A DNA stretch of 20,000 nt, from positions 985,424 to 1,005,423 of the forward strand of contig ML992512.1 of the NCBI GenBank assembly GCA_010093995.1, written 5' to 3'. Under the pieces are notes generated by a model. It was given only the letters and a program-made list of their open reading frames with translations, made no database searches and was not told the origin of the DNA. Within the stretch, counting starts at the first letter, position 1; each line of letters begins with the position of its first letter. Made by a program: the position numbers and the translations under genes. The stretch is from Elsinoe ampelina (taxonomy: Eukaryota). Positions 1,146 to 20,000 of this stretch are shown one piece after another.

Positions 1146-1357
1146 GAGCAGGATGGGTGTCGAGAAGTCTGTATCATGATACTTTATGATAAACGAAAGA
1201 GCGTGGAGTTTGGCAATGTTTTCGATATAGACAAGGGTCAGGATGATAGATCATAATTAGACGAGTAGCTGTAATCTAATTCCACTTATTTCTAGAAAGA
1301 TCTTCATGTCCTCGTTCAACTGCAATAGTCGATTTGTGTTCACATTACTGGTCATGT

Positions 1358-2188
1358 CTACGTTACTATGAGTTCTGCGGAAGCGTCATCGACTAATTGC
1401 AGTCCGTGACCATGCTCGTTCATCACTCGAACGGCCTCCTGCGTTAGCTGGTAACTCCAGTAATAATTGGAGAAGTCGTTCGCGCTCTTGACGTGGGTCG
1501 AACTGGAATCGGGTGCCGCTGCTCGCGTGTTTCGCACGACTTGTGCTACCCTCTCCGACCTCAGCTCATTGAAGACCTGAAGTCGAGCATGCACCTCGTC
1601 AGACTTGGCACCTTTCAGGACAACTCGCAGTGCTTCGGCATCCTCCAGTGCTTGACATGCTCCCTGTCCTTGGTCTACAGTCTGTCAGTTCTCGTGATCG
1701 TTCGACGCTGATGACCACGCTCACGTGGTCCCATCGCATGACCTGCGTCACCGATGAGAGCAAAGTTGTCCTTCACCAGGGAGTCGAGTGGATCTCGATC
1801 CCTCAGCTGCCTGCCATCCGCCATTGCGAGAGCCTTGAGGACGCTTGGGTGGAAGTCCTTGAACGTCTCGAGAATCTCCTCGACTGAAGCTTTCTCATCC
1901 CACTGCATACGTCGTTCGCTACTATCTGGAAAGATACCGACAAAGTACCTTCTCAGCCTCGACGTAACGAGCTTTGTGCTTGTCAAAGCCAGCGCGAGCG
2001 AAGCTCGACCTGAGTAATCTACTGGCATTGACCGAGAACGTTACGGCAGCGCCGACTTTTTTGTGCACAGTAGATGCTCCAAGAACAACCACATCATGGT
2101 CCTCTCTGAGCAGCAATGCTGTAGCTATGCCTGCAATACCGGCACCGCACACGATCACTCTAAGTCGGGATGTGATAGCTTCTACCAT
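1358..2188 (-). pseudogene. FAD-dependent monooxygenase (salicylate hydroxylase-like), internally deleted
   Basis: The pieces 2188-1949 (VIVCGAGIAG Rossmann motif), 1902-1725 (LIGDAGHAMGP) and 1674-1358 (HQGQGACQALEDA) join through GT-AG gaps at 1948-1903 and 1724-1675 into only ~245 aa. The central part with the DG motif is absent, and the conserved acidic residue after beta-strand 2 is Gly (VVVLGAS). Confidence 0.8.
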
Positions 2189-2540
2189 GTTTGACAGCAG
2201 CCTAGCGAGAGGCCCTGGGGGAAGAAAAGAATCGCATGTTGCTGGACTATTGAAGTACCGCCCTGTCCGAACGTCGCAGGTAAGAGTGCGGGTAGACTGA
2301 CAGTTCACATCACATGAGTTGCGGAAGTCGTGCATCGGTTGTGCAAGTGTATACTTCTGGTTCTCGAAATGTTATCTGTCCCGTCACTGCGATGCAAATG
2401 ATTAAAATCTCCACTGTATTTTGCTCATCCCTCCGGCGCCAAAGCTGGTATCAAGTGAATGTCGTGGCCCATTTCCCGCGAGCAAAAATTAACGTCATCT
2501 CTGGCATGAAATTATTTACAATGGTCATAATCGTGCTAAT

Positions 2541-3822
2541 CTAGACATAGATGTAGCACAGAGGTCGTTTGGTCGTCGACATGACGTCTCCGATGGTGAC
2601 AGTCTTCGCGAGGACACCGAGATCGATCGCATCGGTCAAGGCCGTGTCGCGGCTGGGAGGACTGTTGAAGAGTGTGAGGGTTCCGGCAAGTGCTCTCTCA
2701 CGGGTAGCAAGGTCCTGATTCTGCCAGATCCACCAAAGGCGATCGATTTGACCATGATGGAGGAAGAAGTATGGGTCGCCAGGGGAGGCAAAGAGATCTC
2801 CCCCTGGATCGCCACCAACAAGGAAGTGACCAGCAGTATGCACACCGATAAATCCGTTGGGGAAGTCACCTTGCATGGTGTTCTGGAAGGACAAGATGTC
2901 CTGGTTGTTATTGATAAGAGTGGTCGAGTTTTGATCGTAGAGGTTCGAGGTCGAAGCCGCCGAGCTGATGTCACGGCGGATGCAGCGAGGATTGTATCCA
3001 AGTCCATCAGGAGACGGGTTGGCGGGAGCGTATGGAAGGACAGGCGAGAGAGGCCCAAGGTTGACCTGGTAGTCCTTGAACGGACCGGAGGTGATGCAGT
3101 CACCACCGTTTCCAGGTGGAAGAGTCAGGGGAGGCGTAGCTGCGGCAAAGATCACGGCAGGAGGGTGCTCACGGTAAGCACCATCGCCGCTCATTGAGGT
3201 GTCGGAGCCATCGAAGACTGGTGCTGCGCGAGGGTTGGACGCTAGCTTTCCCCAGTTGAGGTATGGTTGATATCCGGTGTAGCCGCACTCATTTCGCAAA
3301 GCTTGCTCGTAGGCCCATGTGAAATATCTGTGCCATGACAAGAAGTTTCCAGTGCCGTGGATGGACAAGGTCTGTTGAATGTGCTTCAACATGTTAGTCT
3401 TGATGATTTGGGATGAGATACTGAGGTCCACATACAATAGCGACAAAATCATCGTATCGGTTCTTCGCTCCTGGGGCGGCGGAACCGACTTGAGAAGGTT
3501 TCGATTGCAAACACTGGACAGCAGAGATGTAGGCCTTCTTCTCCTTTGCGCTAAGTGTGTTCCTACTGAGGTCAGTATCGTTCACGGAGGCATCATGAGT
3601 GAGGGCTTACCATTCTCTCCGCTGAGCGGCTGTGAGTATGTTGCATGTTCCTGGTGCTCCCGAGGTAAATTGAGAGACAGCAAGCTTGATCAGCCCCAAA
3701 GCTGCAAGCTTGTCTGTACCGGCGGTGCTGTCTGGTGTCCATGCTGGCGCAGGTGCACGCTTGACAGGGCCAGCACTAACGACCGTAGCCGCAGCAGCGG
3801 ACAGAAGCCAAAGAAGATGCAT
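2541..3822 (-). CDS. Secreted tyrosinase / catechol-oxidase-like di-copper protein (~393 aa)
   Basis: Exons 3822-3611, 3562-3436 and 3383-2541; intron donors GTAAGC and GTATGT with branch sites. Signal peptide, RREW, RYDDFV, CuA His residues (HIQQTLSIH...FLSWHR) and CuB (HTAGH...DPYFFLHHGQIDRLW). Confidence 0.93.
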
Positions 3823-5318
3823 AATGTAATGCCCACGTGGATGACTGCCTGAAAGAAGAGTCGAAGATCAGCGATTATCCACTACTGTGCAGTATACACG
3901 TGGTGCACGTTGGAGTAATGGGCTGCATGAAACCGTCATGGGAACCTGCATATATAGATACAAATAGAGGTCTCATTAGAGCCATTGGATAGCGCAATAT
4001 GATCAACGCGCAGTACCCACCGGAATCCTGACTATGCAGCCACAAGGGTGACAGAACATGTCTAGCTCACCTGTCATGCCAGGAAAACCAAGTGCCGAAC
4101 GAGTGGGAGGCGGCGCGGGCTTGCGGGAAATGTCCAGGCTCGTCCCGTTATGGAAAAAGACTTTTGGGGCCCTGCAATTTAAGTTGACCTACGCCCGGGA
4201 TTGCCCCACTGCGGCGTGGTGAAGATGCAGGGCAAGCCCCAGAGGGGGGGCTGACTTTCCAGAAGGCTTCTCTAGACCAAGTTGGGGCGAGACTGGATCT
4301 CCTTGACGACGAGTCGAAGGATTCATGCAGCTGACGGTGAGCAGCTTCGAAGAGATGTGCTTGAGACACCCAATTCCCGCAGCGTAACAGCTTGGATGAA
4401 ATGATAGTCTCAGACGACACAAGCGAGGCGTCCGGAAATGAAGCCTTTAGGGCTCGCTGGGCACCTGATCCACGATAAAGTGAAGATTGATCTCCCTGCC
4501 AATGACGATCAATGGAGCCACGTGCGAGGGCCTGAGAAACATCACGCCGCACGCGAGGTGCGACGACGGCATAGAATTGCCGTTGGTTTTTGCTTTTGTG
4601 TCGACCGCGATAGGGCACGGCCGGGAACCGGTCACAGGCAGCGTGGCTGTCCGTTGGAGAGAAAAAGAACAGACGCCCCCCTGCATGGACGAAGCTAAGT
4701 AGACGACACTATTGCCTTCTAGGCGGGATAGGAAACCGCACGGAAGTCATCGTATCCGAAGTCATGGCTCTCGCACGTAGTCCTGGAGAGGGAAGAGCTA
4801 CGCAGCTATTGGAACAAAAGACGAAGGAGGCAAAGACATAGAGGTTACCGTTGGGTGGCACTCTGTGCTGATCAGAGCCGAAACAGACGTTTGCGCTCTG
4901 GTGGCAGGATTCAAGCTCGGCGCCGCTGATATACCTGGTCCTTTCCATATCCTGGTGTACCCGTCATGCATATCCTCGGTTGTTTAGGCAGATTTGCAGA
5001 GGTCCTGAATATGGACAACGGCTGATCAGCATGTCGCGTTGGTGGACTCGCAATCGACTTGTGTGCCCTGGGTCGGTGAAGACTCCTCTGACAATCTCAG
5101 CATCCCTGCCGCCGGCAAGAGGGGGCCGTGTGATTTCTTCGGCTCGCATCAGGCACTAACTCGGACGGGATCGTGCAAGTGTGCATCCCATGGTGAGCTA
5201 TTGGAATGGTACGGGCTCTTCCTGTAACAGATGTGCAATTATACATGCATACACATAAAGATCCCTGATCGCCGGTCAAGATCTGTCCGCGCACCTTTGC
5301 TGCATCGTTGCGTACATC

Positions 5319-6705
5319 ATGCCGGCACTTTTGCTTGCTCGTGCAGGTGACCTGACACGGCGTGCCAATGTCAAGGGTTCTCCAGCATACCTCGCCGAAA
5401 ACAACGCGCCTGCTATCCTTACACTTGTTGGCGTCTTTGGAGGACTGTCTCTCGTGACGGTATGTCTTCGGATCTATGTCCGGCAATTCATGCTGGAAGG
5501 CGTGACTGCCGATGACATTGTTATGTTTGTCGCAATGGTCAGTCATTCATCCTGCATTCCATAGAATGCTTCTGACTCTATCAGCTCATGGGTATCGCCT
5601 TGTTCGGATGCTTCTGTGGTCAAGCCAATCATGGACTGGGTCGCCATGAAGAGTTCTTGACTTTGGACGATCAACAAGGCTTTCAGCGCATCCAGTTCTG
5701 GTCTTCCTTGCTGGTCACCTCAGCCATCACCTTGGTCAAGGTCTCGATATCGCTGCTTCTCATCAAGCTGGTGAACAATAAGCACCTTATCCGCTTCCTT
5801 TACGTCTTCATCGGTGAGTTCATGTTTGCGACACATGTAAGGTCTTGCGACTGACATTCAAGGTTTGATCTGCGCATACACGATCGCCTCCGATCTCACC
5901 ATCATCCTCGCCTGTCGACCAGTGGACGCCGCTTGGGACTTTTCGAAAATGCCGACTGCGAAATGCTTCTCGACCAAGACGTTCAGTGCTCTCGGCATTG
6001 CCAATTCGGTCGTCACTATCTTTACCGATGTCCTGCTTGCGCTCCTTCCGGTGCCCATCGTGTGGAAATTGCAGACCAACTTGCGAACAAAGGTCGCTCT
6101 GATTGGTGTGCTGGCCTTGGGTCTCGTCGCAGTAGCTGCCGGTGCTGTCAAGGTCAACGCTCAACTGACTTTCTTGTCTATCGCGGATCGTTTCTAGTAA
6201 GTCGTCCACTGTCCTATGGCCGCAACAGCCGTGCTGACAGTCACCCAGCAAGAACGAATTCCCAGTCTGGGCTGCGCTGGAGCTATACATTGCCATCATT
6301 GCGGCGACACTGCCGACACTGCGTCCTTTGATGGCCGCATTCTTCAATGGTGTACGAAGCACAATTGGTTCGTCGAGCGGACGTACGAAGAAGACAACGC
6401 AGCAAAATACAGGAGGTCGATCGAGACAGAGAGGATACCATTCTCGAGCAATGTCGACCACTTGCAGCCGCAACGAGATGGTCAGAGATGAGGCAGGTAG
6501 CCAGGAAGGGCTTGTACTCACTCCGGTGAGCGGGAAGCACACTCCTGCTCTCACAAGGTCGACAGGCACTGGTGAGATGGACGAGAAGAGCAAGGATAAC
6601 AACGTTATTGTTCGGACTACGCATATCCATACGACAAAAGGATCGAGCTCCGACAGCTCTCCTAATGCGTCGTCATTCGGGGAGTTTGAATTTCAGAAAA
6701 GATGA
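5319..6705 (+). CDS. PTH11-like (fungal rhodopsin-domain) integral membrane protein, no CFEM domain
   Basis: Exons 5319-5537, 5585-5813, 5863-6196 and 6249-6705 splice in frame. Motifs LRIYVR...ADD, GLGRH, KVSISLL, CRPVDAAWD, TDVLLALLP..IVWKLQ and W..LE....IAATLPTLRPL. Confidence 0.9.
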
Positions 6706-7283
6706 TTGTATCAACGACTGTATTATAGAGCGTCCCAGCCGCAATGACGGGTAGGCGACATTGTAATGATTACTTCTTTCCCACGATCGAGCCCTTCTCT
6801 GGCTGCACACCCAAGAACGCTTTCCCACGGCGAGCGGGGTACATTAGGCATGGCGCAATCGCTGGCGTGACCTCAGATCCCGTGAAAAACCGTCGTTGTT
6901 CTGGAAGGAAAGCTAATTATGAAGGAAAATTGATGAGAAAGAAGCTCGTTTTCAGCTGCGAGAGCGGCACCAAGACTTTGTTTAGGCTGCCTTGGGAAGG
7001 TGACAGGGTCCGGGATAGAGATCTACTGCTTGGCCTTTACCTTTGCTCCTCTCCGGACTTTCTCTTTGGATGGGACTATGCACAGTACCTTGACAAAATG
7101 CTTAGCATGCTTGGACCTTTCTATTTTGTCGTGTGCGTTCAGGGCGGACATGAACTAGGTCCATGGCCAAAGATAAGTGGCCGCTGCCAAAAAAGAGTGG
7201 CGAGCGGCAGAGGAATGCTATATTAATCAAGCAGCGCTGGTCGCTGATGTGTGGCTCATCACAGGTATCTCACCAAGGTCATC

Positions 7284-8816
7284 ATGAAGGTCAACTCATT
7301 CACTTCGGTCGCTGCATTGGCATCCACGGCGCAAGCCGTTTTGCCACCTCTTCGTTCAGAGTGGTTCCAGAATACCATCACCACGAATGGGTGAGTTGTC
7401 TCTAGCGGTCACTGATCCAACTTCTCACGCAATCGCAGTCTAATGGAGAATCTGGCCAACCTAGACCGGATTGCGACGGAGAATGGTGGCAATCGAGCCT
7501 TTGGACTACCCGGCTACGACGCATCTCGCGACTTTGTCTTCGACCGTGTGTCCAAGTCGAAGAGGTTCACAGCTTCGAAACAAGACTTCCCTGCTTTGTA
7601 CAACAATGTCGACTCGATCACATTTCGTGTAGCCAACACCAGCTACTATGTCTTCGGTCCGACGTACTCGCCATCAACTTCTCCAGAGGGACTGACCAGG
7701 CAGCTCGTCCTTGGGCCTTCTGGTGATGCAGGTTGCAGCGTAGAGGGCTACGCAAACATCGACGTCAAGGATAAAATGGTCTTGGTACAGAGAGGGACAT
7801 GCCCGACTGGAGGGACCATCGCCGGAAGGATCAGGCCTGCCGCTGCTGCCGGCGCTGCCATTGTTATCCTATACAACAATGTACCCACCAAGGTCACTGG
7901 AGGTACCCTTTCAGCACCGGACCCAAAAGCTTTTGTTCCCAGTGGCTTCATCAATCAAGATGACGGCGAGGCTCTGCGGACAAGATTACTTGCTGGCGAA
8001 GTCATCGAGCCGTACTTTCAACACACTCAGACAGTCGAGACCAAGATCACTCAGAACGTCTTTGCTGAATCCAACGGCGGTGACCCCAACAATGTCATCA
8101 TGCTTGGTGCCCATCTCGACAGTGTGAAGGCTGGTGCTGGTATCAACGATGATGGATCTGGGAGCTCTCTCCTGCTGGAACTCTTTGACGGTCTTCAGCG
8201 TTTCAATTTCCGTAATAAGATCAGGCTTGCATGGTGGGGAGCTGAAGAAAATGGTCTAGTCGGTTCCCGATACTACACAACGCAGATCAACAACACAGCA
8301 GATGCCGACAACCTTCTTCTCTACCTGAACTTTGACATGGTCAGCAGAGGCTACTTTGGAGTGTTTGACGGAGATGGAAATACCCACGGCTTGGCTGGTG
8401 CTCCCGGCTCGGATGTTATCGAGAAGCTGTTCGTCGATCACTTGACAAGCAAGGGTATCAATGTCACCGCCGCCATCTTCACCGGTGGTAGCGATTATGC
8501 CTCATTCATGTCGACCCTTAACAAGCCTGTCGGCGGTCTACACACCGGCACTGGCGTTGCCCAGGACGACTGCTATCACCAACAATGTGATGTTTATGGC
8601 AATGCAAACCCCAATACACTCACCATCAACGCCAAAGCTGCGGCCCATGTTCTGTCCGTACTGGCCCAGCGAGGTCAAGACATCATCCCTAAGAAGACCG
8701 GCAATTTGACCATGACGGTGGGCAAGCGATCAGTGGAAAGCTTGGATCTCGACGACTTCCCATGGACTGTGCTTGACAGCGAACGCCATCTCGGCACTTG
8801 CGGCCACGATGTTTAG
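7284..8816 (+). CDS. Secreted M28 aminopeptidase with PA domain (aminopeptidase Y / LAP2-like, ~494 aa)
   Basis: Exon 1 7284-7390 (signal peptide MKVNSFTSVAALASTAQA), intron 7391-7438, exon 2 7439-8816. Zn-ligand motifs GAHLDSV, GINDDGSG, WGAEENGLVGS, LNFDM and CYH; PA insert LVQRGTC. Confidence 0.93.
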
Positions 8817-9279
8817 GTGGGCATGTTAGGCATATATGGGTTTCTGTAGAGTAGTAGAGGGGTGTAGAGGCTGTAGCACGTAGTGGACGAAGTGACGAAG
8901 TGAACGATGATAGCACTGCCAGCATAGGCGAATCAAGGCACTCATGATATGTGTGAGGTCGATCTCCGTGTCAGTCTTGTCGTCGAGTGAAAATACTGAG
9001 GACAACACGGAGACACCTCCCCGCCCTTGGCACACCGAACCGAGTTTCTCCACGACCTGAAACCCACCTGTTCTCCTTCGTCCTTCACAGCACCAACCAC
9101 AAACATTTTCGTCTGTCATGGTCTCTCAAATGATACTCCGAGTGGCGCAAGGGATGCTGGTCGTTGCTACCAGCACGTCTGACCATCTTGGCAGGGCGGA
9201 GTACCAGCGCTGGCAGGTATAAGTAATATCTGCTGCTGTACCATCAGTAAGATGTTCATCTTCCGCAGATCCTCTCACC

Positions 9280-10274
9280 ATGATCTTCTCCCGGCTGACC
9301 ACACTGACCACTCTTGTGGCCTGCTTCGCTGCGGTCACCCAGGCATCACCTGTTTCGTCTCTCGAGAGACGCGCCGACACATCCTGCACAGCTGCTGCCG
9401 ATGGCTTTGCTTCACTGAATGGAGGCACCACTGGAGGAGCGGGTGGAATTGTAGTCATTGTCACCACCCAAGCAGATCTCGTCAAGTTCGCCAAGGCATC
9501 TGGCAAGCATGTCATCAAGGTCAAGGGCAGGATCAGCATCACTCCAAAGGGTACCGAGGTCGAAGTGACCAACGACAAGACCATCATCGGCATCGGTGCC
9601 TCAGGAGAGATCTATCAAGGCGGTTTCAAGCTCAATGGTGCCGAGAACGTCATCTTCCGCAACCTCAAGATTGGGAACACGTATGTTGAAGGGGACGAGG
9701 AGGGCAAGACTCAGGACTGGGACGGCATTCAGATGGACACCGCGAGCAATGTCTGGATTGATCACGTCTTGTTCGAGAAGGGCGGCGATGGGCTGATCGA
9801 TAGTCGGAAGGACACAAACTTCTTGACCGTTTCCAATTCTGTTCTGCAAAACCACAACAAGGCCTTTGGTATTGGCTGGACCGAGAATGTGATTGCCCAG
9901 ATCACCATCCATCACAACTATTTTTTGAACACCAATCAGCGTAATCCTTCGCGGACAATGTCAAGTACGCTCACCTCTATAACAACTATGTCGTCGGCGC
10001 AAAGTCGTATGGTCATTATGCTCGCGGCAAGACTGATATGCGTATGGAGAACGTCTATTTTGAAAATTCCAAGAACCCCATCACCGCCGACTCCACGGCG
10101 AAGCTGGCGATATCTGGCAATGTCTACAAGAGCACCACCGGGACTACCGCGAAAGACCAGGGCACCGTCTTCAACGCTTCTAGTTTCTACAAGTACACTT
10201 TGACTCCGAGCAACAATGTCCCGAGCGTTGTCAAGGCAGAGTCTGGACCCAAGGCAAGCATTTGCACTTCATAA
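9280..10274 (+). pseudogene. PL1 pectate lyase with a 1-nt frameshift (pseudogene or sequence error)
   Basis: Signal peptide, GFASLNGGTTGG, KTIIG, NVIFRNL and VWIDH. After QRNP the sequence CCT TC GCG GAC (9946-9956) lacks one base, and the lyase continues in another frame (ADNVKYAHLYNNY...ENVYF) to the stop at 10274. Confidence 0.85.
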
Positions 10275-12699: not shown

Positions 12700-14424
12700 A
12701 TGACTGGTGTTACCAAACAGAGAGCCTCAGAAGAGGTGACCCAAGTCAACACGCTTGGTCACCTACGCCTTCGCCATGAGCTTACCAATGAGATCATCCT
12801 CATTCCTACACCATCCAATGATCCCAATGATCCTCTCAACTGGTAAACAAGCTCTTGTCGATAGTGAAGTCAGCTTACTCTAGCAGGTCGAAGCGGCACC
12901 GCGTTTACATTGCGTTACTGGTCTCTCTGGCAATGTTTTTCTGCAACTTTCTTGCCGCCGGACCGTCTGTTGCCATCGTCAACATTGTTATCGATTACTT
13001 CGGCACGCCGCCAATGACCCCCGGGTTTCCGGCCGCTATCGCAAAGACCGCGTACCTCTTCACTACTACTGCACTGCTGCAAGGCATGGGGAATCTCATC
13101 TGGATGCCATTCATCATCAAATATGGCCGTCGACCCATGTATATCATATCATTCACCGGTTACGCCGTGTGTGCCCTTTGGTCTGGATTGTCCAAGAGTT
13201 ACGAGAGCGAGCTGGCGTCTAGGATCATTTTGGGATTCTTTGCAGGATCAGCTGAATGCATTGCACCTCTCACCATCTCCGACATCTTTTTCTTACATGA
13301 GCGTGGATTCTACATGGGGTAAGTCTTTACGGTATTACACAACATGCACGGGTGCTTTCATGCAGAGAATGTACAAATCGCTAACACCGAAAAGGATGTA
13401 CACAGTGGCACTTTCACTTGGCGTCTCTGGAGGTGTTATCATCTCTGGTTTGATCACAATCAATCTGAGCTGGCGGTACATCTATTACGTGGCCGCGGCT
13501 CTCATTGGTGCTTTGACCATTCTTGTCTTTTTCACCCTTCCAGAGACGGACTTCAAACGCGATCCGACCACGAGGACTATCCGTAACATCGAGTCAAAGG
13601 AGGTCGAAATAACAGAGCATGTAGAGGGACTGCCTGATACCAACCCCAGGCAATCTTTTGTGCAGCGTCTGCGCGTATTCCATGGACCCTTCACCAATGA
13701 GTCACTTTGGCGCATCTTCTACCGACCTATCGTCTTACTGGCGCTCCCACCTGTCCTGTGGGCAACCCTGATTATGTCTGTCACAATTGGATTTTTGGTC
13801 GCTATCTCGTCCAATTTTGCGTCCGCTTTCGCGCAAGTGTATGGGTTTAAGCCGTATCAATCCGGTCTCTGCTTCATCTCAGGATTCATCGGCACTCTGT
13901 TCGGTATCTTCGGCGGTGGTCAAGTCTCGGACTGGGTGGCCGATTACTTTACTCGCCGCAACGGAGGGATTCGCGAGCCGGAAATGCGTCTGCCAGCCAT
14001 GACACTGGGCTTGATCTGCACCCCTGTAGGTCTGGTGCTGTACGGTGTGGGCATTGAGAAACAGCTTCACTGGATTGTCGCAACCCTCGGTCTTGGGTTT
14101 CTCAGCTTTGCTATTGCGCAAACAACGAACGTCTCCCTGGTCTACATTATCGACTCGTACAGACCGATCGCTGGTGAAACTGTCGTTACTCAATTGGCTT
14201 TCAAGTCTGCATTCGGATTCCTTCTTTCCTTCTACACGAACCCCTGGATCGAAAAGGCTGGGTATGCCAATGCCTTTGGTGCCATGGCCGGAATTGCAGG
14301 GGGGGTGATCTTGCTTTGGGTACCCTTCTATATCTGGGGAAGGCAAATCCGTGTGGCAACACTCAAATGGAGGGTCATGACAAACCTGGCAGGATGGGAT
14401 GAGGATAGAGAGGTCGGCGAGTAG
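12700..14424 (+). CDS. MFS transporter (DHA1/HOL1-like, ~534 aa)
   Basis: Exons 12700-12842, 12887-13318 and 13395-14424. Motifs LIPTPSNDPNDPLNW, KYGRRP, ISDIFFLHERG, LPET and GIREPEMRL. Confidence 0.92.
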
Positions 14425-15078
14425 GGGAGGCTTGCGGGCCCTTGATATATCATCTAGCCAACGCGACGAACAGGGATACACGGAGTTCAATGGACCAACA
14501 GCCCAGTACTTGCTACAGATATTGGATTCAGCGCTTTACTTGCTCGTGAAAACCTCTTTCATGTAGATCGTTGGTGATGTATGATAAAGCAAGCAGCCGG
14601 ACGCTCTCATCACACCTGAACGAGGGGATCGCGTGAGCGCATGCTCGACGAGGCTTAACGTGAGAGGACCATTGTAACCCTGGGGTGTCGCACGCATCTG
14701 CACGAAATGTGGTCCCGGTCAATGCCACGCGGTTCTCATGGGAGGCGTTTTTAGACTTCTGCATGCCTTGCGAGCGTTTGTTGAACCATGTTTTGACATC
14801 GGGCCCACATGTTCACCCCGCGTCCCAAACAATCAATTTCCATCTCCCTCTTCCTCTCCAACGACCACGACTTCGGATTGCATACTCTGTGGGCACCAAC
14901 AATCCGCTCTCCACCCACAAGCACACTTCTTGACCTCATCTTCGCGATTCTTGGGGGACCACATGCCCGGGCGGGCTCTCCACCTGTGGAGGTAAGATGG
15001 GATTGAACATCCGGGTCCGCGAGCAAGGAGAAGAGCAGGAAGAACAAGGACAACTGAGATTGTAGCAAGCTGGAAATC

Positions 15079-15900
15079 ATGGAAGCATTGGATAACGCCG
15101 TCGCCATCAACAGTCGGGACACCGATCTTCAGGCCGTCAACTTGCAGTCGTTGACAGGCAAAATCGCAGTCATCAGCGGGTCAAGCTCTGGCATTGGCAA
15201 AGCGATTGCCATCGAACTTGCCAGTCGCGGCGCGTCTACAGTCATCAACTATCCGTTCGAAACCCTCAAGGATGAAGCGGCGGCGGTATTACCTCGTCTA
15301 GCGGTCCCTGGGATAGCTGTCTGCGCCGACATATCAACCATTGACGGTCCAAGAATCCTGATCGAGGCGGCCGTGAAAGCGTTTGGGAAAGTCGACATTA
15401 TCGTCAACAACGCAGCGATTGCTGTCAACAAACCTTTCGAAGAACAAACCCTTGCCGACTGGGATCTACTTGTCAACCTCAATGGGCGGGGGACATTCCT
15501 GCTCACCCAACACGCACTTCCTCATATGCCTCGCCCCGGTGGTCGAATAGTCAACATATGCAGCGCTTCGTCTCGTGGGCCGCCGCCATGGCAGACTATC
15601 TACGCCGGGACAAAGGGTATGGTCGACAGCTTCACCAAAGTGTGGGCCAAAGAGCTTGCGGAGAAGTACGGCTGCACAGTCAACAGTGTGAGTCCGGGAC
15701 CGACCAGGACAGAGGGGTTTGCAAATGCGGGCGAAGAGGTCATGAAGTTTCTACAACCCACCATTGACGCCACACCGGCAGCGAGACGGATGGGGGAAAC
15801 TACGGAAATAGCGTATGCGGTGGCTATGCTGTGCGAGGAGCGAGCGAGGTGGCTCAATGGACTGCATCTGCATGCTAATGGAGGTCTTCTCATTGATTGA
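15079..15900 (+). CDS. Classical short-chain dehydrogenase/reductase
   Basis: Intronless 273 aa ORF with SGSSSGIG, VNNAA, catalytic YAGTK, VNSVSPGPT and a C-terminal NGG. Confidence 0.93.
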   Translation: MEALDNAVAINSRDTDLQAVNLQSLTGKIAVISGSSSGIGKAIAIELASRGASTVINYPFETLKDEAAAVLPRLAVPGIAVCADISTIDGPRILIEAAVKAFGKVDIIVNNAAIAVNKPFEEQTLADWDLLVNLNGRGTFLLTQHALPHMPRPGGRIVNICSASSRGPPPWQTIYAGTKGMVDSFTKVWAKELAEKYGCTVNSVSPGPTRTEGFANAGEEVMKFLQPTIDATPAARRMGETTEIAYAVAMLCEERARWLNGLHLHANGGLLID

Positions 15901-16251
15901 TAGACAAAATAAAGAATCGTATGCCTTGCATCTTGTGTCTTATCGTCACGCTGATGCTGTAGGGAATGTTACCTGAACTGCTGAGGTGGGCCGCGGAGGA
16001 CCACTAAGGGCCAGCTGGGCCGATCATACTGTACTGCTGCATTGCTACCAAGATATGTCATTTGCCGGATATGAATGTTCGTGTATCGTCCGATCCACTG
16101 TGCCCAACAACCCCGACACTCCCACTCGGCTCTGACCCTCTTCCTGTTCCATCTCCACATACTTAGCGACCAGGGCTTGCCACAGATATCGACCGGGTCC
16201 CTAACCACAACCCAATCTCACCATCGCTCGCGCTTGTTCTTGAGCTTTACC

Positions 16252-16549
16252 ATGTTGCATCTCGTGCTTCTCTCTCTGGCCGTGCTGGCCTTCGCTCTTG
16301 CGGTCAGTTGCATGATGAGCAGAGCAAGTCTTGACTGACCATTCGTAGTATGTGTACCGTATCCTGGCGTCACCACTCCGACGACTGCCCGGCCCCTGGT
16401 ACTCTCACTTCACCCATCTCTGGCTGAAGTGCCATGTCGTCAAAGGCAGACGCCTTCACTATATCCGCGGTCTACACAAGCACTACGGGCCGATTGTCCG
16501 TGTCTCGCCTACCGGGATCGATGTGTCCTCAGGGTTAGGGTTAGGGTGA
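16252..16549 (+). pseudogene. Cytochrome P450, N-terminal fragment only
   Basis: Exon 1 16252-16302 (membrane anchor), intron 16303-16348, then exon 2 with SPLRRLPGP...LHKHYGPIVRVSP. After ~77 codons the frame runs into telomeric repeats (SGLGLG*). No I-helix, EXXR or heme-Cys region is present in the window. Confidence 0.88.
16529..16546 (+). repeat. Interstitial telomeric tract TCAGGG(TTAGGG)2
   Basis: Read directly from the sequence. It coincides with the P450 breakpoint and with a compositional boundary. Confidence 0.8.
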
Positions 16550-16582
16550 AAAGTACATTCAGTGTGTAGCTACCCTGACATA

Positions 16583-17659
16583 CATGTCCAAATCGGTGGC
16601 AAACAGCAATCACGCAACGAAAACAAATCCTATCTAAACCAAATTTTTACTATATTAAATGTACCTCTTTTCTTATAGAACGTAGCAAAAATTATCTAAA
16701 TCTAATATTAATTGACTAAGATATTAGCGTTTCTAGTTAATACTATATCCTACCTAATTCTATACTCTTATATAAACTAGGTTCGTAGATAAGTAGCCTA
16801 TAAGCTAGTTCTACGTATAGTAAGATAAGGAATATTAAATTTCCTTAAACGCCGCTACTAATTTATACTTTAATAGTCTCTCTTAGCTAAGAATAAAAAG
16901 GTAAAAGCTATACTTTAAAAGGATATATTTATACTATTTCTTAGTCTCTACTATAGTAAGAGTTAAGTCCGGTGTAGCTCTAGTCTTTTCCCTTACTAGG
17001 GAGACTACTATAATATTATAGAAAGTTATTCCTATTAGTATATTAACTTTAATATCTATCTAGTAGTTAGAATCTTCTTCTCTTTTTAGTTTAAGTATAG
17101 TAGTTATTTAGGCAACGAAATTTATTACTTTAGCTAGTACTCTATAGATAAGATTATACTTAACTCTTATCTATTAAGAATAAGTACTATAGATATCTTT
17201 ATAGCTAAAAGTATATATTTTACTATAGTACTAGTAAAGCTCTTACTAGCGCTCTACTAGTAAGAGAAGTTAAATCGAGAGTGCTAACGTAATATTCTAA
17301 TTAGTAAGGAGTAGGTCTTAGCTTATTCGAAGTATAGAGAGCTAATAGAAGTCTAAATAGATACTATTTTTTTATTTTATAGTCTCTTACTCTTTTAATA
17401 GGTTTTAATATATCTTTATTAATCTTATGTTATATATAGCTTAGATCTAGGTCTAGTAGTGTTATTTAGCCTATTTAGCGTCTAATAGATCTATCGAGAG
17501 GTCTATAAAGAGGAGAAAGAAGATTCTAAAGGTTAAGATATTCTCTAGTATACCTATATAAATATAAAAGGTTTAAATTGCTTACGGCGCGCTATTAGTC
17601 GTTTCGACCTTATTCTAGGCTAGAATAGGGCCTACTCTAGCTATAGTATCTGGACACTA
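16583..17659. mobile_element. RIP-degraded repeat, probably a TA-targeting DNA transposon remnant
   Basis: Very AT-rich (sampled 60-mers 18-33% GC) and TpA-saturated. CpA/TpG are nearly absent internally while CpG survives, and there are no ORFs. Imperfect inverted ends CA-TGTCCAAAT ... ATCTGGACACTA are each flanked by TA. No transposase could be read. Confidence 0.65.
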
Positions 17660-18856
17660 TATGTCTTAGGAGGAAGGGTACATTCCAATGGTTTTACTAG
17701 AGCAGGGTTAGGGTATTTTCCTAGATTCTAATGGGATTCCTAACCTCCATTCTTTAGGACTTCCTAAGATTTTTTCCCTCTGAATTTTTCAGAGATTACT
17801 TATATCACCTAGGTCCTCCATGATACTCAGTATCATCTAGAATCATCGAGTATTACTCCCAGAATCTGGGTCATGGTATGCTGGGACTGTCCTGAAAATC
17901 TTTTGAAGTTCCTGAGAAAATATGGGGTAGGGGTCTTGGCAGCTTTGCTCCTGACAGTCAGGAACTCCAGAACATCCCCACAAATTCAGAGAGGCCCAGG
18001 CAGACCAGTAGACAGATATAGAATACATATTGAAGCAGAATGAATTTCCTAGCAAACAGGAGGTCCAAGAATCATAGATGACTCCATGGTACTCAGATTG
18101 TATGTATGGATATCGCTCCTAGAGTTATCAGGGAAATCCTAGAGCCTATGATCCTCGATTGAATAATAGACAACCAGGATCTTCAGTAGAAATACCTACC
18201 TCCCCTCCTGTCTTTGTCTTTTCTAACTACCTCTCAGCATTCCCCCATCATTTTCCGGGGTCCAGGGTTCTCAGGACAGCCAGATTGATATTCAATAGCT
18301 TTTCATGATACCAGATTCAGATCTGGTAAGTAGATCATATCGGCAGGAGTCAGAATGGAATTCTTGAGGGCTCATGGTTCCGCTGGAGTACAGAGCCATA
18401 ATCATGAGTCCATCCACCCAAAGGTTTGGGCTATTGTTCCTATTGTATTACCTATTGTTATATTGCTCCAGGCAACAATAAACTTTCATAAGGAATTGTC
18501 AGCAAGCATTCCTGGTTTGGCCCCTGGCAGCCAGGCGTTGGTTAGTACATCCTGAGTCTCCAGGGATTGTGACCTGGGCCTTTCACATGCTATATTCACA
18601 TGCTCCTTTGTTATTATATCACCCTTTGTTTCATATGCCCAGCCACCTAGCATGACTCACAGATCTCATATATCTCTTTCATTCCCTCCAGCTTTCTTCC
18701 TTCCTCTTCTCATCACCTTCATCACAGTAAGTTTGCCCCATCACAGCCAGATCCTCATCCAGTCCCTTCAAGAGAGTCAAAGCAGCCAGAGATGCCACCA
18801 CAGAGATCAAACAGCTTCCAATCAGCTCCAGAAAGAACCAGCTTTACAGCTCACCT

Positions 18857-18895
18857 ACAGCCTTCACAGCCTTCATAGCTTTCACAGAGCTTTTC
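18857..18895 (+). repeat. Degenerate 9-bp tandem repeat (ACAGCCTTC)
   Basis: ACAGCCTTC ACAGCCTTC ATAGCTTTC ACAGAGCTTTTC, with further CAGCY copies scattered over about 18780-18980. Confidence 0.65.
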
Positions 18896-19163
18896 ACTAG
18901 CAAGAGATGGATATACCTGGCAGCCCTTTACACCAACAAGCCCAGCAGCCTTCACAGCAATACATACAGCTCCATTCAGCCTATAGATCTTATCTCTGCT
19001 GCTTTGACTCTACTGAGAGGCCTTGAATGAGGACCTTTGGTGAATGTGAGCCTTCCTGAGAACCCTGACTGACCATGACTTCCAGTTCTGACCTCCTGGC
19101 CCTCCTGCAATTTTGCCTTCCTTCCTGAACAACTTCCTGAGCCCAGCGCTCCCAGCAACCATC

Positions 19164-20000
19164 ATGGCTCCCAGGGCCTCGCATACTAGGACTCCTGTGA
19201 CCTTCCTGGCTACCACTAGAGACAGGGTTGCCAACCTGAATACCCTGAGTAAGCCCTGAGCCCCTGATACACATCCTGATTTCACTGACACTTCCAGGCT
19301 ATGCCCAGGTTCCTATGACCCTTCCCTTTGCCCAGCAGGTCCAGGCCAACCTCCAGGGACTCAATGTGGCCCAGCGCAATTCCCTGGACGCCCAGGTCAA
19401 ACCCCTGGTCAACGCTGATCTCCAGGTCTTCGCCAGGACCGGTCCTGAGTTCCAGCTCAACCAGCCCATCAACCTGAGGACTCCTGGAACGACCATGAAC
19501 CTTTCTGGATCCAACACCAACTACCTGGTTTCTCTGCTCGTCCATGGCGCTTCTGGGCATACTGTCCACCCAGCTGGTCAGGAGTGCACTTCCTGTGCTC
19601 AGGGGAACGGCAAATACAACTCCTGTGTCACCATGACCACTCCTGACGGCACTGTGCTCCTGAGGGGCTCCTGTACCAACTGTGGCTTCCAGAACAATCA
19701 CCATGGCTGCAGCTTGTCCAGTACGTGTTCCTGAGTTTCCTGATCGATCCTGACTGACATGAGTCCCAGACTACCAGAGAGCTTCCAGACGCCCCTCTAC
19801 TGACCCCACCCCTGTGCGTCCTAGGGCTTCTGGACCCATGAGACGCCTCAGAGGTCTCCTGACCGACGATGAGGCTACCAGGGGCTTCCTGATTGAGCTT
19901 CCTGACGACTCTGACCCTTCTGAGAACCAGCGCGCCCTGGACAATTTCCTGGCTCTCCTGGACGATATCAAGGCTCAGGTGACCACCCTGAGGGACAGGG
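19164..20000 (+). CDS. Three-exon gene for a six-cysteine putative zinc-binding protein (DUF3716-like), 3'-partial
   Basis: ATG at 19164 in a good context (ACCATCATGG). Exons 19164-19248, 19298-19720 and 19770->20000; two 49-nt introns (donors GTAAGC and GTACGT, CTGAC branch, CCAG acceptor) keep one open frame. Motif C-x2-C-x9-C-x15-C-x2-C-x8-C at 19585-19710. The DUF3716 label is from memory of the motif, not from a search. Confidence 0.8.

What the first reader, a model, noticed from the sequence alone, without database searches (positions are those of the whole stretch)
16500..16560. Cytochrome P450 cut off precisely at a telomeric repeat
Seen: the P450 reads normally to ...VRVSPTGIDVS and then runs straight into TCAGGG TTAGGG TTAGGG TGA, with the G-rich strand pointing away from the gene-rich DNA as at a real right-hand chromosome end. 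About 85% of the gene is missing and composition changes at once. Known: TTAGGG is the filamentous-ascomycete telomere unit, and short internal telomere relics mark rearrangement breakpoints in Pyricularia. Inference: either a break was healed by telomerase and later extended with foreign DNA, or an element whose terminus is a telomeric repeat inserted into the gene.
Basis: partly seen in the sequence, partly recalled or inferred. Interest (0 to 1): 0.8.

Follow-up and report, generated by a model that had tools for sequence, protein, structure and literature searches.

The report
P450 cut at a former telomere
A fungal cytochrome P450 gene stops after its first sixth and runs into three telomere repeats and then the mutated tail of a telomere-seeking jumping gene, which marks a place where a chromosome once broke and was re-capped; this kind of event is known, but here it is seen in a new group of fungi.

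Summary
A P450 gene (ATG 16252) reads normally to codon 78 and then meets GGGTTAGGGTTAGGGT (16532-16547), G-strand pointing away from the genes. Orthologues in two Elsinoe species run straight across this point. Contigs assembled separately from the probable source sample cross the junction without a mismatch.

The AT-rich DNA behind the tract is not anonymous foreign DNA. On the minus strand it is the last ~1.1 kb of a non-LTR retrotransposon killed by RIP (the fungal repeat-induced point mutation process). It comprises the C-terminal restriction-enzyme-like endonuclease domain, the natural stop codon and a ~185-nt 3' UTR, and its 3' end abuts (CCCTAA)~3. phmmer gives E = 9e-23 to reverse-transcriptase proteins. 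Their full-length relatives are 37% identical to a Pyricularia oryzae reverse transcriptase that is probably MoTeR1.

Three relatives from metagenomes also end in a short telomere-like tract. This is the geometry of MoTeR "relics", which tag former chromosome ends.

Best reading (0.68): a terminal deletion cut the P450, the end gained telomere repeats, a telomere-targeted retrotransposon sat on them, and RIP and another repeat followed. Direct insertion into an intact gene is not excluded, because no whole genome was available. It is a new member of a known kind.

The parts
15058..15900 (+). Short-chain dehydrogenase gene, the upstream neighbour of the P450 (context and synteny anchor).
   Evidence: Pfam adh_short_C2 1.2e-47. 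Window 15088-15861 is 83% identical to residues 1-258 of the E. fawcettii model P0001, which carries the P450 directly behind it.
16252..16302 (+). P450 stub, exon 1 (17 codons from the ATG). The predicted intron is 16303-16348 (GTCAGT...TAG).
   Evidence: Read from the sequence. The exon and intron are my prediction and are not confirmed by RNA.
16349..16531 (+). P450 stub, exon 2 (61 codons), ending ..VRVSPTGIDVS-S. The gene is cut here at about codon 78.
   Evidence: 75% identical to P0001 residues 259-319, E 7.7e-25. Orthologues continue ..DVSSPE[LI]HKQ...
16532..16547 (+). Interstitial telomere tract GGGTTAGGGTTAGGGT (2.7-2.8 units; A16531 may belong to it), with the G-strand running 5'->3' away from the genes.
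   Evidence: The telomere unit of E. fawcettii is (TTAGGG)n (PMC12941528, passage).
16548..16732 (-). 3' untranslated region (~185 nt) of the retrotransposon relic. Its last base abuts the telomere tract.
   Evidence: It lies between the natural stop codon (16733-16735) and the tract. Relatives have 3' UTRs of 133, ~182 and ~345 nt before their tracts.
16733..17650 (-). RIP-inactivated C-terminal part of the retrotransposon ORF. The homologous part is 16736-17437. The stop at 16733-16735 coincides with the homologues' natural stop. There is no frameshift across ~245 codons.
   Evidence: phmmer found 9 hits at E<=1e-3, best 9.2e-23. tblastn placed 7 of 10 reverse-transcriptase proteins only at 16736-17437 on the minus strand. 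Alignment A1. 35 of 38 columns invariant in the homologues are identical or reachable by undoing C>T/G>A changes, against a null mean of 6.3 and maximum of 17 in 5000 draws.
17015..17236 (-). Restriction-enzyme-like (REL) endonuclease motif set, decayed by RIP: C-X2-C-X7-H-X3-C-X9-(K)H(D) -X20- E -X9- R-T-D -X12- D.
   Evidence: The RIP-tolerant motif scan hit only this frame, 1 of 6. Nulls: 1 of 600, 3 of 3000 and 1 of 3000. Residue-by-residue correspondence to the homologues is in A1.
17653..19164 (.). Multi-copy repeat of unknown class that replaces the 5' part of the retrotransposon. It is not RIP-mutated in this copy and holds a second 11-nt telomere-like tract (AGGGTTAGGGT, 17704-17714) in the same orientation.
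   Evidence: The single-copy contigs end at 17679. Summed contig depth is 550-9850 against 225-231. There are many C>T/G>A variant contigs, and loose ends at 17649-17653. GGGTTAGGG at 17705-17713. No Pfam hit in six frames. No similarity to 16548-17652.
19165..20000 (+). Expressed, spliced DUF3716 gene that runs off the window. Introns are 19250-19298 and 19721-19769.
   Evidence: Pfam DUF3716 2.9e-12. Atlas neighbours are ascomycete DUF3716 proteins. X3/X4 contigs skip 19721-19769 (GT..AG) and splice at 19249.

Best explanation
This is a relic of a former chromosome end. A terminal deletion removed everything distal to codon ~78 of a cytochrome P450 gene. The broken end acquired TTAGGG repeats, most simply by telomerase priming on ...TCA. 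A telomere-targeted non-LTR retrotransposon of the MoTeR/FoTeR type (reverse transcriptase plus a C-terminal REL endonuclease) came to sit on those repeats. Its 3' end lies toward the centromere and its 5' end toward the chromosome tip. It arrived either by target-primed reverse transcription into the telomere or by copying from another element-bearing end.

Only ~2.8 repeats were left between gene and element. Repeat-induced point mutation then destroyed the element. Its 5' part, including the reverse transcriptase, was lost and replaced at 17653 by another multi-copy repeat.

Shown: the truncation, the tract and its polarity, the identity, strand and RIP decay of the element, the read-level reality of the junction, and the telomere-tract habit of the family.

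Inferred: that the locus was terminal, that telomerase made the tract, and the order of events.
For: (1) The P450 stops at 16531 while two Elsinoe orthologues and an Aspergillus homologue run on (..VS-S-..).

(2) The tract is far above chance and its G-strand points outward.

(3) The minus-strand translation of 16548-17650, with stops read as X, hits 9 proteins (best E 9.2e-23), always at their C-terminal ~245 residues. 4 of the 9 carry RVT_1 upstream; the other 5 are short fragments.

(4) The alignment runs to the homologues' natural stop and contains the CCHC...KHD...E...RTD...D endonuclease motifs. 35 of 38 invariant columns are identical or RIP-compatible, null maximum 17. In-frame stops sit opposite W, R and Q.

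(5) The full-length relative P0125 is 37% identical over 100% of its RT+REL region to a P. oryzae reverse transcriptase (P0173, E 4.9e-113). P0173's E-to-RAD spacer of 48 residues fits the hallmark that PMC12857005 gives for MoTeR1. P0125 is also 40% identical to a F. oxysporum TR4 protein.

(6) Family habit: of 5 metagenome loci, the 3 read to their 3' ends (L001, L002, L003) all have a short C-rich telomere-like tract right after the 3' UTR. L001 has C(CCCTAA)3 followed by a 5'-truncated peptidase gene. L003 has a second, 5'-truncated copy behind the tract.

(7) In the same genome, another contig runs from a copy truncated at the equivalent of 16812 into TAGAGTTAGAGTTAGAGTAAAAAGTATATT. This matches 16530-16559 at 24 of 30 positions, and all 6 differences are C>T or G>A. 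It is a tandem arrangement of truncated copy, tract, then next copy.

(8) Published geometry: MoTeRs always have their 5' ends nearest the chromosome end, and internal relics are 3' termini attached to a short telomere tract that tag once-telomeric sequence (PMC7367193, passages). FoTeR 3' ends are followed by 3-7 TAACCC (PMC12857005, section 19).

(9) RIP indices: GC 0.29 and composite index 1.52 for 16550-17640, against -0.75 for the left flank.
Against: The P450 3' part was shown absent only from this 20-kb window, not from the genome, because none is held.

The window ends 3.4 kb beyond the junction, inside repeats. It is therefore unknown whether a telomere or the rest of the gene lies beyond.

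The tract has the same length (xAGGG + 2 units + T) at a second locus of this genome and almost the same length in L001. That could mean the ~3 repeats travel with the element rather than being a remnant of a healed telomere.

The link to MoTeR1 is transitive. The relic itself gives no significant BLASTP match to P0173, and 3 of 10 reverse-transcriptase queries (P0125, P0127, P0173) gave no tblastn hit at E<=0.01.

No outgroup-rooted tree was built. That P0173 is MoTeR1 is inferred from its species, name and motif, not read from a record.

The exact pattern CCCTAACCCTAA occurs in only 1 of the 5 metagenome loci. The tracts of L002 and L003 are degenerate or variant and were read by eye.

The read support comes from what may be the source sample.
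Confidence: 0.68

Rival explanations
1. Direct insertion without a chromosome break. The retrotransposon carries, or templates, its own ~3 telomere-like repeats as a 3' tail. It inserted into an intact P450 gene, and the rest of the gene lies beyond the element's 5' side, outside the window.
For: The tract length is the same at a second locus in this genome and near-identical in L001. In both the window and L001 the tract abuts a truncated gene. The genome could not be searched for the P450 3' part.
Against: The published relatives are described as telomere-embedded or consistently localised at chromosome ends. For MoTeRs this rests on PMC7367193 (passages). For FoTeRs it rests on the abstract and section 19 of PMC12857005. 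The P450 sequence at the break (..GTGTCCTCA) is not telomere-like. No P450 remnant lies in the 3.4 kb to the right. A tandem 'truncated copy, tract, copy' arrangement is what telomeric arrays look like.
Confidence: 0.14
2. Repair by copying rather than by telomerase plus transposition. The broken end in the P450 invaded an existing 'tract + element' junction at another chromosome end, by break-induced replication or microhomology (..TCA/GGG). It copied the tract and element together, so the three repeats were never a functional telomere at this site.
For: The tract length is identical at two loci of the same genome. PMC7367193 explains identical interstitial tracts in MoTeR arrays by break-induced replication or D-loop extension rather than by repeated transposition (passage). 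Subtelomeric repeats follow the relic.
Against: Homology at the junction is at most 1-4 nt. The outcome cannot be told from the main explanation with the present data, and it still implies a terminal break in the P450.
Confidence: 0.13
3. Assembly artefact: two unrelated sequences were joined through a short telomere-like repeat.
For: The region to the right is repetitive, and the short-read contigs break at 17679.
Against: Two Logan contigs (13.9 and 53.3 kb) cross 16528/16548 and continue 1.1 kb further with 0 differences. The 19-nt tract is shorter than the 31-letter words on which those contigs and their index are built (the 31-letter contig construction is partly my inference). Flank and relic are therefore linked within single words.
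Confidence: 0.03

Closest known systems
MoTeR1/MoTeR2 and internal 'MoTeR relics' of Pyricularia (Magnaporthe) oryzae
   Same: It is a non-LTR retrotransposon with reverse transcriptase plus a C-terminal REL endonuclease. The 3' end is joined to TTAGGG/CCCTAA repeats and the 5' end faces the chromosome tip. Relics are a 3' terminus plus a short telomere tract next to unique DNA. Tandem arrays of 5'-truncated copies are separated by short tracts (PMC7367193 passages). A full-length relative is 37% identical to a P. oryzae reverse transcriptase that is probably MoTeR1.
   Different: The fungal class differs: the best hits are Elsinoe for the host genes and Aureobasidium for the element. The E-to-R(T/A)D spacer is 8-12 residues, not ~48-49. 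The copy is heavily RIP-mutated. No variant 5' repeats can be seen because the 5' end is missing.
FoTeRs of Fusarium oxysporum
   Same: The 3' end is followed by about 3-7 telomere units, with asymmetric junctions. The REL motif layout is C-X2-C..H-X3-C-X9-RH(D/N)-X20-E..R-x-D-X12-(D/E). Decayed copies show RIP, and N-terminal C2H2-like fingers are visible in the full-length relative P0125 (PMC12857005 sections 16 and 19; by eye).
   Different: There is only a weak direct match, E 0.01, to a F. oxysporum TR4 protein that may be a FoTeR ORF (not verified). Tandem repeats sit in the 3' UTR of relative L003, whereas FoTeR tandem repeats lie mostly 5'.
De novo telomere addition (chromosome healing) at terminal deletions
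   Same: Unique coding sequence ends abruptly in G-strand-outward telomere repeats, with a 1-nt possible seed (A16531). Orthologues are continuous across the site.
   Different: The tract is only ~2.8 units and is now internal to at least 3.4 kb of further DNA, so it is not a working telomere. Telomerase action is inferred.
Drosophila HeT-A/TART healing of broken ends, and endonuclease-deficient Penelope-like terminal elements (Athena/Coprina) (recalled, no call)
   Same: These are retroelements attached by their 3' ends to chromosome termini, 5'-truncated and stacked head to tail.
   Different: Those elements either lack an endonuclease or replace telomerase. Here a REL endonuclease domain is present and canonical TTAGGG repeats separate the copies.

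Membership tests
MoTeR/FoTeR-type telomere-targeted non-LTR retrotransposons (REL-endonuclease, CRE/SLACS-related clade) | C-terminal restriction-enzyme-like endonuclease motif set: CCHC, RH(D/N), E, (R/K)xD, (D/E). | tested here: met
   The RIP-tolerant scan hit 1 of 6 frames, the minus strand at 17153-17236. Nulls were 1 of 600, 3 of 3000 and 1 of 3000. Alignment A1 puts the relic residues opposite C, C, H, C, KHD, E, RTD and D of the homologues, each identical or reachable by undoing C>T/G>A. The strict published regex fits only 5 of 12 family proteins tested. Close relatives such as P0122 miss it by one residue of spacer, as read by eye.
MoTeR/FoTeR-type telomere-targeted non-LTR retrotransposons (REL-endonuclease, CRE/SLACS-related clade) | Reverse-transcriptase domain upstream of the endonuclease. 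| tested here: inconclusive
   It is absent from the window: tblastn hits lie only at 16736-17437 and the element is cut at about 17652. It is present (Pfam RVT_1) in 4 of the 9 phmmer hits; the other 5 are short fragments.
MoTeR/FoTeR-type telomere-targeted non-LTR retrotransposons (REL-endonuclease, CRE/SLACS-related clade) | 3' end joined to telomere repeats, with the element's sense strand followed by CCCTAA-type repeats (5' end toward the chromosome tip). | tested here: met
   In the window the order on the minus strand is ORF stop 16733-16735, UTR to 16548, then CCCTAACCCTAACCCT. The same layout is seen in L001, L002 and L003, the 3 of 5 loci read to their 3' ends. L004 was not read and L005 is uninformative.
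MoTeR/FoTeR-type telomere-targeted non-LTR retrotransposons (REL-endonuclease, CRE/SLACS-related clade) | Sequence kinship with MoTeR1 or FoTeR reverse transcriptases, and placement in their clade. | tested here: inconclusive
   The link is transitive. The relic matches P0121, P0124 and P0125 at E 9e-23 to 2e-9. P0125 matches the P. oryzae reverse transcriptase P0173 at 37% identity, 100% coverage, E 4.9e-113. The direct relic-to-P0173 BLASTP is not significant. No rooted tree with outgroups was made.
MoTeR/FoTeR-type telomere-targeted non-LTR retrotransposons (REL-endonuclease, CRE/SLACS-related clade) | Intact copies confined to telomeres. | not testable with these tools
   No genome is held for the window. 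The run search and the read-laying run had both been used.
Healed terminal deletion (de novo telomere addition) | Unique sequence passes abruptly into G-strand-outward telomere repeats at a point where orthologues are continuous. | tested here: met
Healed terminal deletion (de novo telomere addition) | The distal part of the broken gene is absent from the genome. | not testable with these tools
   It is absent from the window, but the genome is not held. No full-length protein closer than 75% to the stub was found in the protein collection, which returned 2 hits from 12 candidates in a word-limited search.
RIP-mutated repeat | High TpA/ApT, low (CpA+TpG)/(ApC+GpT), C>T/G>A differences from relatives, and other copies in the genome. 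| tested here: met
   TpA/ApT is 1.76, the substrate index 0.25 and the composite index 1.52 for 16550-17640. 21 of the 24 non-identical invariant columns are explained by C>T/G>A. The other copies differ mostly by C>T/G>A.
Functional cytochrome P450 (PF00067) | Full-length fold, including the C-terminal haem-binding cysteine region. | tested here: not met
   Only residues equivalent to 259-319 of P0001 are present. Residues 320-723 have no meaningful match in the window.

The most novel reading that the evidence does not exclude
The element family itself caps broken, non-telomeric ends. Its 3' end brings or templates a fixed ~3-unit CCCTAA tail. Under this reading the retrotransposon, rather than a full telomerase-built telomere, healed the break in the P450 and the break in the peptidase gene of L001. 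That would be a fungal counterpart of HeT-A/TART healing of terminal deficiencies, operating alongside telomerase.
Probability: 0.1. Interest if true: 0.7.

Novelty: new member of a known kind. Interest (0 to 1): 0.5.

Why it matters
It pins down one concrete chromosome-end rearrangement that destroyed a gene in an Elsinoe-like scab fungus.

It also extends MoTeR/FoTeR-type telomeric retrotransposons to Dothideomycetes. The host genes are Elsinoe-like, and relatives of the element occur in Aureobasidium and in many metagenome contigs. No paper in the searched library holds both 'MoTeR1' and 'Dothideomycetes'.

Relics of this kind are useful markers. Each one tags a place that was once a chromosome tip. 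A census in a full assembly would map past terminal deletions, subtelomere turnover and gene loss in these pathogens.

The method may be reusable. Reading a RIP-ruined block with stops as X and searching it with phmmer recovered a clear identity from 29%-GC DNA where Pfam saw nothing.

Tried and rejected
- **Whole genome.** None is held, so the P450 3' part, the distance to a contig end and a census of copies could not be obtained.
- **Earlier findings.** Two look-ups returned nothing.
- **Is the AT-rich block a RIPed copy of the repeat to its right?** No. The transition-collapsed local alignment scored 119 and 94, inside the shuffle range of 92-133.
- **Pfam on the AT-rich block.** All six frames, with stops read as X, gave only a spurious SNX FERM match (E 0.016).
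- **Pfam on 17653-19164.** All six frames gave nothing.
- **Metagenome scan for the junction 21-mer.** 0 matches.
- **Direct BLASTP of the relic against the P. oryzae reverse transcriptase.** Not significant.
- **An early misreading.** I first took 'RATPD...ETK' (about 16940-16983) to be the PD-ExK core. The alignment superseded this and places the R-T-D motif at 17062-17054.
- **Is 17653-20000 the missing 5' part of the same retroelement?** Rejected. There is no reverse-transcriptase match there, it is not RIP-mutated, and it carries a plus-strand spliced gene.
- **Is the DUF3716 region a REP9/IS3EU-like DNA transposon, as in Zymoseptoria?** (PMC8232023, sections read.) No transposase or terminal inverted repeat lies in the window, so this is left open.
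- **Penelope-like terminal elements.** Set aside because an endonuclease domain is present.
- **L005.** A GC-rich contig with a weak match (E 3e-4). It looks unrelated and was dropped. L004 has the same match coordinates as L003 and was not read.
- **X3/X4 coverage.** Stretches without cover are not used as evidence.
- **The joint 16752>17653.** Only 20 letters lie on its shorter side and 'between: not known', so it is treated as weak.
- **Starnes et al. 2012 (PMC3374306).** Not held. What I say of it is recalled or taken from later papers.
- **Supplements.** Those of PMC12857005 and PMC7367193 (element lists, accession numbers) were not opened. They may hold the accession that would settle whether P0173 is MoTeR1.
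Full report
**Observation.** At 16500-16560 the plus strand reads ...GATGTGTCC TCAGGG TTAGGG TTAGGG TGAAAAG.
- The 12-mer TTAGGGTTAGGG, allowing one mismatch, occurs twice (overlapping, 16529-16546). Dinucleotide shuffles expect 0.04 matches, and 0 of 200 shuffles reached 2.
- Tandem Repeats Finder reports 2.8 units at 16531-16547.
- The left 16.5 kb is ordinary gene-dense fungal DNA: MFS transporters, tyrosinase, M28 peptidase, pectate lyase and a short-chain dehydrogenase.
- GC drops from 0.55 (16001-16500) to 0.33 and then 0.26.

**The gene.**
- An ATG at 16252, a predicted 46-nt intron and a second exon give 78 codons.
- Exon 2 (16349-16531) is 75% identical to residues 259-319 of an Elsinoe fawcettii gene model (P0001). 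That model fuses the neighbouring dehydrogenase and a P450.
- The dehydrogenase at 15088-15861 is 83% identical to the first 258 residues of the same model, so gene order is conserved.
- Residues 320-723 of P0001 have no meaningful match anywhere in the window.
- The E. australis orthologue (P0003, 76% identical to P0001 over that part) and an Aspergillus homologue (P0002) also run straight across the break. They read ..DVS-S-PE.. and ..SVS-S-LP...
- TCA at 16529-16531 is therefore most likely still P450. The added sequence starts at G16532, with A16531 a possible one-base seed.

**Is the junction real?**
- Six runs hold part of 14000-20000. Two of them (X1, X2, one sample, flagged as a possible source of the window) hold 98-99% of the sampled words.
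- Their Logan contigs of 13.9 kb and 53.3 kb cover 13000-17679 with no difference. They cross the junction and go 1.1 kb beyond it.
- The 19-nt tract is shorter than the 31-letter words used. A false join through the repeat is therefore very unlikely.
- This is a second assembler on what may be the same reads, not an independent isolate.

**What lies behind the tract.**
- Positions 16550-17640 have GC 0.29, TpA/ApT 1.76, (CpA+TpG)/(ApC+GpT) 0.25 and a composite RIP index of 1.52. The left flank scores -0.75.
- Pfam saw nothing real in any of the six frames read with X at stops.
- MoTeR and FoTeR elements have their 3' ends on telomere repeats and their 5' ends toward the chromosome tip (PMC7367193 passages; PMC12857005 section 19). 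I therefore tested the minus strand for their endonuclease motif while allowing every T to have been C and every A to have been G.
- The pattern was C-X1-3-C-X6-8-H-X3-4-C-X9-10-R-H-[DN]. It was found in one frame only, on the minus strand at 17153-17236, and in none of the other five frames.
- Null results: 1 of 600 frames in mononucleotide shuffles, 3 of 3000 codon shuffles, and 1 of 3000 frames in dinucleotide shuffles.

**Sequence search on the same frame.**
- phmmer of that frame (367 residues, stops as X) against 1.84 billion representatives gave 9 proteins at E<=1e-3 and 4 at E<=1e-10. The best was 9.2e-23.
- In every case the match is to the C-terminal ~245 residues, for example 681-924 of 929 and 869-1111 of 1112.
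- 4 of the 9 have a Pfam RVT_1 domain upstream. The other 5 are fragments of 149-388 residues.
- Those that carry names are reverse-transcriptase proteins of Aureobasidium vineae and Cordyceps fumosorosea.
- tblastn of ten family proteins against the window hits only 16736-17437 on the minus strand. That was 7 of 10 queries, with E from 1e-17 to 0.01. P0125, P0127 and P0173 gave no hit at E<=0.01.

**The alignment.**
- In alignment A1 the relic follows the homologues without a frameshift to their natural C-terminus..GYSIN-stop against ..GYGIN-stop. The stop is at 16733-16735.
- It carries the whole endonuclease motif set: C-X2-C-X7-H-X3-C-X9-KHD-X20-E-X9-RTD-X12-D.
- At the 38 columns invariant in the seven homologues, the relic is identical at 14 and differs only by C>T/G>A-type changes at 21. 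That makes 35 of 38, against a null mean of 6.3 and a maximum of 17 in 5000 draws.
- Its in-frame stops lie opposite W, R and Q.
- The AT-rich block is therefore the RIP-killed last ~300 codons plus a ~185-nt 3' UTR of a non-LTR retrotransposon. It lies on the minus strand with its 3' end touching the telomere tract.

**Which family.**
- The full-length relative P0125 (1112 residues) was searched over its RT+REL region. It finds 595 proteins.
- These include Aureobasidium melanogenum (58% identity) and a Pyricularia oryzae 'reverse transcriptase' of 1070 residues (P0173; 37% identity over 100% of the region, E 4.9e-113).
- They also include a Fusarium oxysporum f. sp. cubense TR4 protein (40% over 67%), and proteins of Cladobotryum, Filobasidium, Kwoniella, Tilletia and Wallemia.
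- P0173 has C-X2-C-X7-H-X3-C-X9-RHD-X20-E-X48-RAD-X12-D. The long E-to-RAD spacer is what PMC12857005 (section 16) gives as the distinguishing mark of MoTeR1, so P0173 is probably MoTeR1. This is an inference.
- The strict published regex fits only 5 of the 12 family proteins tested. Close relatives such as P0122 miss it by one residue of spacer, as read by eye.
- The relic itself shows no significant pairwise BLASTP match to P0173, so the link is transitive. I built no rooted tree.

**Family habit at the 3' end.** Alignment A2 retrieved five metagenome loci.
- L001 (92% identical to P0122) has the ORF stop, a 133-nt UTR and then C(CCCTAA)3. Directly behind lies unique genic DNA encoding a CPAF-like PDZ/S41 peptidase that appears to lack its 5' end.
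- L002 has a ~182-nt UTR, then TAACCCTATCCAAACCCTAACCCTAC, then AT-rich DNA.
- L003 has a UTR with tandem repeats, then CCCAAACCCAATCCCAAACCCTAA, then a second 5'-truncated copy of the same UTR.
- L004 has the same match coordinates as L003 and was not read. L005 is a weak, GC-rich match and was dropped.
- All 3 loci that could be read to the 3' end therefore show a short C-rich telomere-like tract. The exact pattern CCCTAACCCTAA occurs in only 1 of the 5 loci.

**Other copies in the same genome.**
- Two 112-nt contigs match 16635-16740 with 7 differences each.
- One contig matches up to 16812 and then continues TAGAGTTAGAGTTAGAGTAAAAAGTATATT. This equals 16530-16559 at 24 of 30 positions, and all six differences are C>T or G>A.
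- That is a 5'-truncated copy, a RIP-mutated three-unit tract, and the start (the 3' end) of the next copy. It is the array structure described for telomeric MoTeRs.
- It also shows that the tract has the same length at two loci. This is the main observation that does not follow simply from 'remnant of a healed telomere'. It keeps alive both the copying rival and the tail-carrying rival.

**Right of the relic.**
- From 17650-17653 the single-copy contigs stop. Many variant contigs, mostly differing by C>T or G>A, pile up to summed depths of 550-9850, against 225-231 for the flank.
- Contigs identical to the window have depths of 553-710 in X1. That suggests roughly three identical copies, but it is a rough figure, because summed contig depth is not a copy number.
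- This repeat is not RIP-mutated here. It is unrelated to the relic and has no Pfam match in 17653-19164.
- It contains a second telomere-like 11-mer at 17704-17714 in the same orientation.
- From 19165 a DUF3716 gene runs off the window.
- Contigs of X3/X4 are 100% identical to the window. They cover only genic stretches and skip 49-50-nt GT..AG intervals, so they behave like RNA. They show that this gene is spliced and expressed.

**Interpretation.**
- The geometry is unique gene, then short G-strand-outward tract, then the 3' end of a MoTeR-type element whose 5' side points away. In Pyricularia this is called a relic and is read as a tag of formerly telomeric sequence (PMC7367193).
- The simplest history is this: a terminal deletion into the P450; telomere repeats added on ..TCA; acquisition of the element by transposition or by copying from another end; RIP; then loss or replacement of the element's 5' part.
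- That paper also reports that interstitial tracts of three or more units are fragile and that stable ones have up to two. This fits a surviving tract of ~2.8 units.
- I put 0.68 on this history, 0.14 on direct insertion into an intact gene, 0.13 on capture by copying without a functional telomere at this site, and 0.03 on artefact.

**Novelty.**
- The kind is known (MoTeR, FoTeR, Cnl1).
- The member is new as far as I could see. No paper in the searched library holds both 'MoTeR1' and 'Dothideomycetes'.
- The 12 listed papers out of 1,004 from a broader query did not contain MoTeR1.
- Starnes et al. 2012 is not held, and I recall, without a call, that it mentions relatives in other fungi.

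Noticed in passing
window 15916-16499: Contigs of runs X3 and X4 are 100% identical to the window and behave like RNA. They skip 16289-16338 (+/-2) with ends CT..AC, which is a GT..AG intron on the minus strand (GTCAGT...CTGAC...AG). The transcript seen over the P450 stub is therefore antisense. Both contigs stop at 16499, 30 nt before the tract (one study only; a weak hint of a transcript end).
   Followed up: partly
window 17653-19164: A high-copy repeat of unknown class begins at 17650-17653, where several contigs have different left flanks. Summed contig depth is highest at 17680-17913 and generally lower further right. One contig joins 18245 back to 17653 with TA between. A second telomere-like tract, AGGGTTAGGGT, sits 51 nt inside at 17704-17714, in the same orientation as the first. 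It could be another telomere-attached or non-autonomous element, but no test was possible.
   Followed up: partly
window 19165-20000: A DUF3716 gene on the plus strand, spliced and expressed. Contigs identical to the window have about 2.4 times the flank's depth. In Zymoseptoria tritici two DUF3716 genes are cargo of the 7.9-kb IS3EU-like transposon REP9 (PMC8232023, sections read). No transposase or terminal inverted repeat lies inside the window.
   Followed up: partly
L001 1084-1954: A metagenome relative of the element ends in C(CCCTAA)3 at 1220-1238. It is followed at once by a CPAF-like PDZ/S41 peptidase gene that seems to lack its first ~50 codons. This is a second case of a gene cut at a three-unit tract plus this element family.
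   Followed up: partly
L003 5100-5665: This relative has ~10-nt tandem repeats in its 3' UTR and a variant tract (CCCAAACCCAATCCCAAACCCTAA), followed by a second 5'-truncated copy. It is a tandem array with variant telomere-like repeats.
   Followed up: no
window 17705 (loose end in run X1): One contig leaves the window at 17705 into 24 letters that look like a library adaptor. I recall a loxP-type arm, but no call supports that. I treated it as a library artefact, not biology.
   Followed up: no
window 15058-16531 against P0001: The E. fawcettii model P0001 (723 aa) fuses the dehydrogenase and the P450 into one protein. In the window the two are separated by ~350 nt, and the P450 has its own ATG and hydrophobic N-terminus. 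The fusion is therefore probably an annotation merge. The E. australis model P0003 (438 aa) likewise seems to have a wrong N-terminus.
   Followed up: no
window 16548-16620: The first ~70 nt of the element's 3' UTR next to the tract are much less AT-rich than the rest of the relic. RIP seems to fade toward the junction with single-copy DNA.
   Followed up: no
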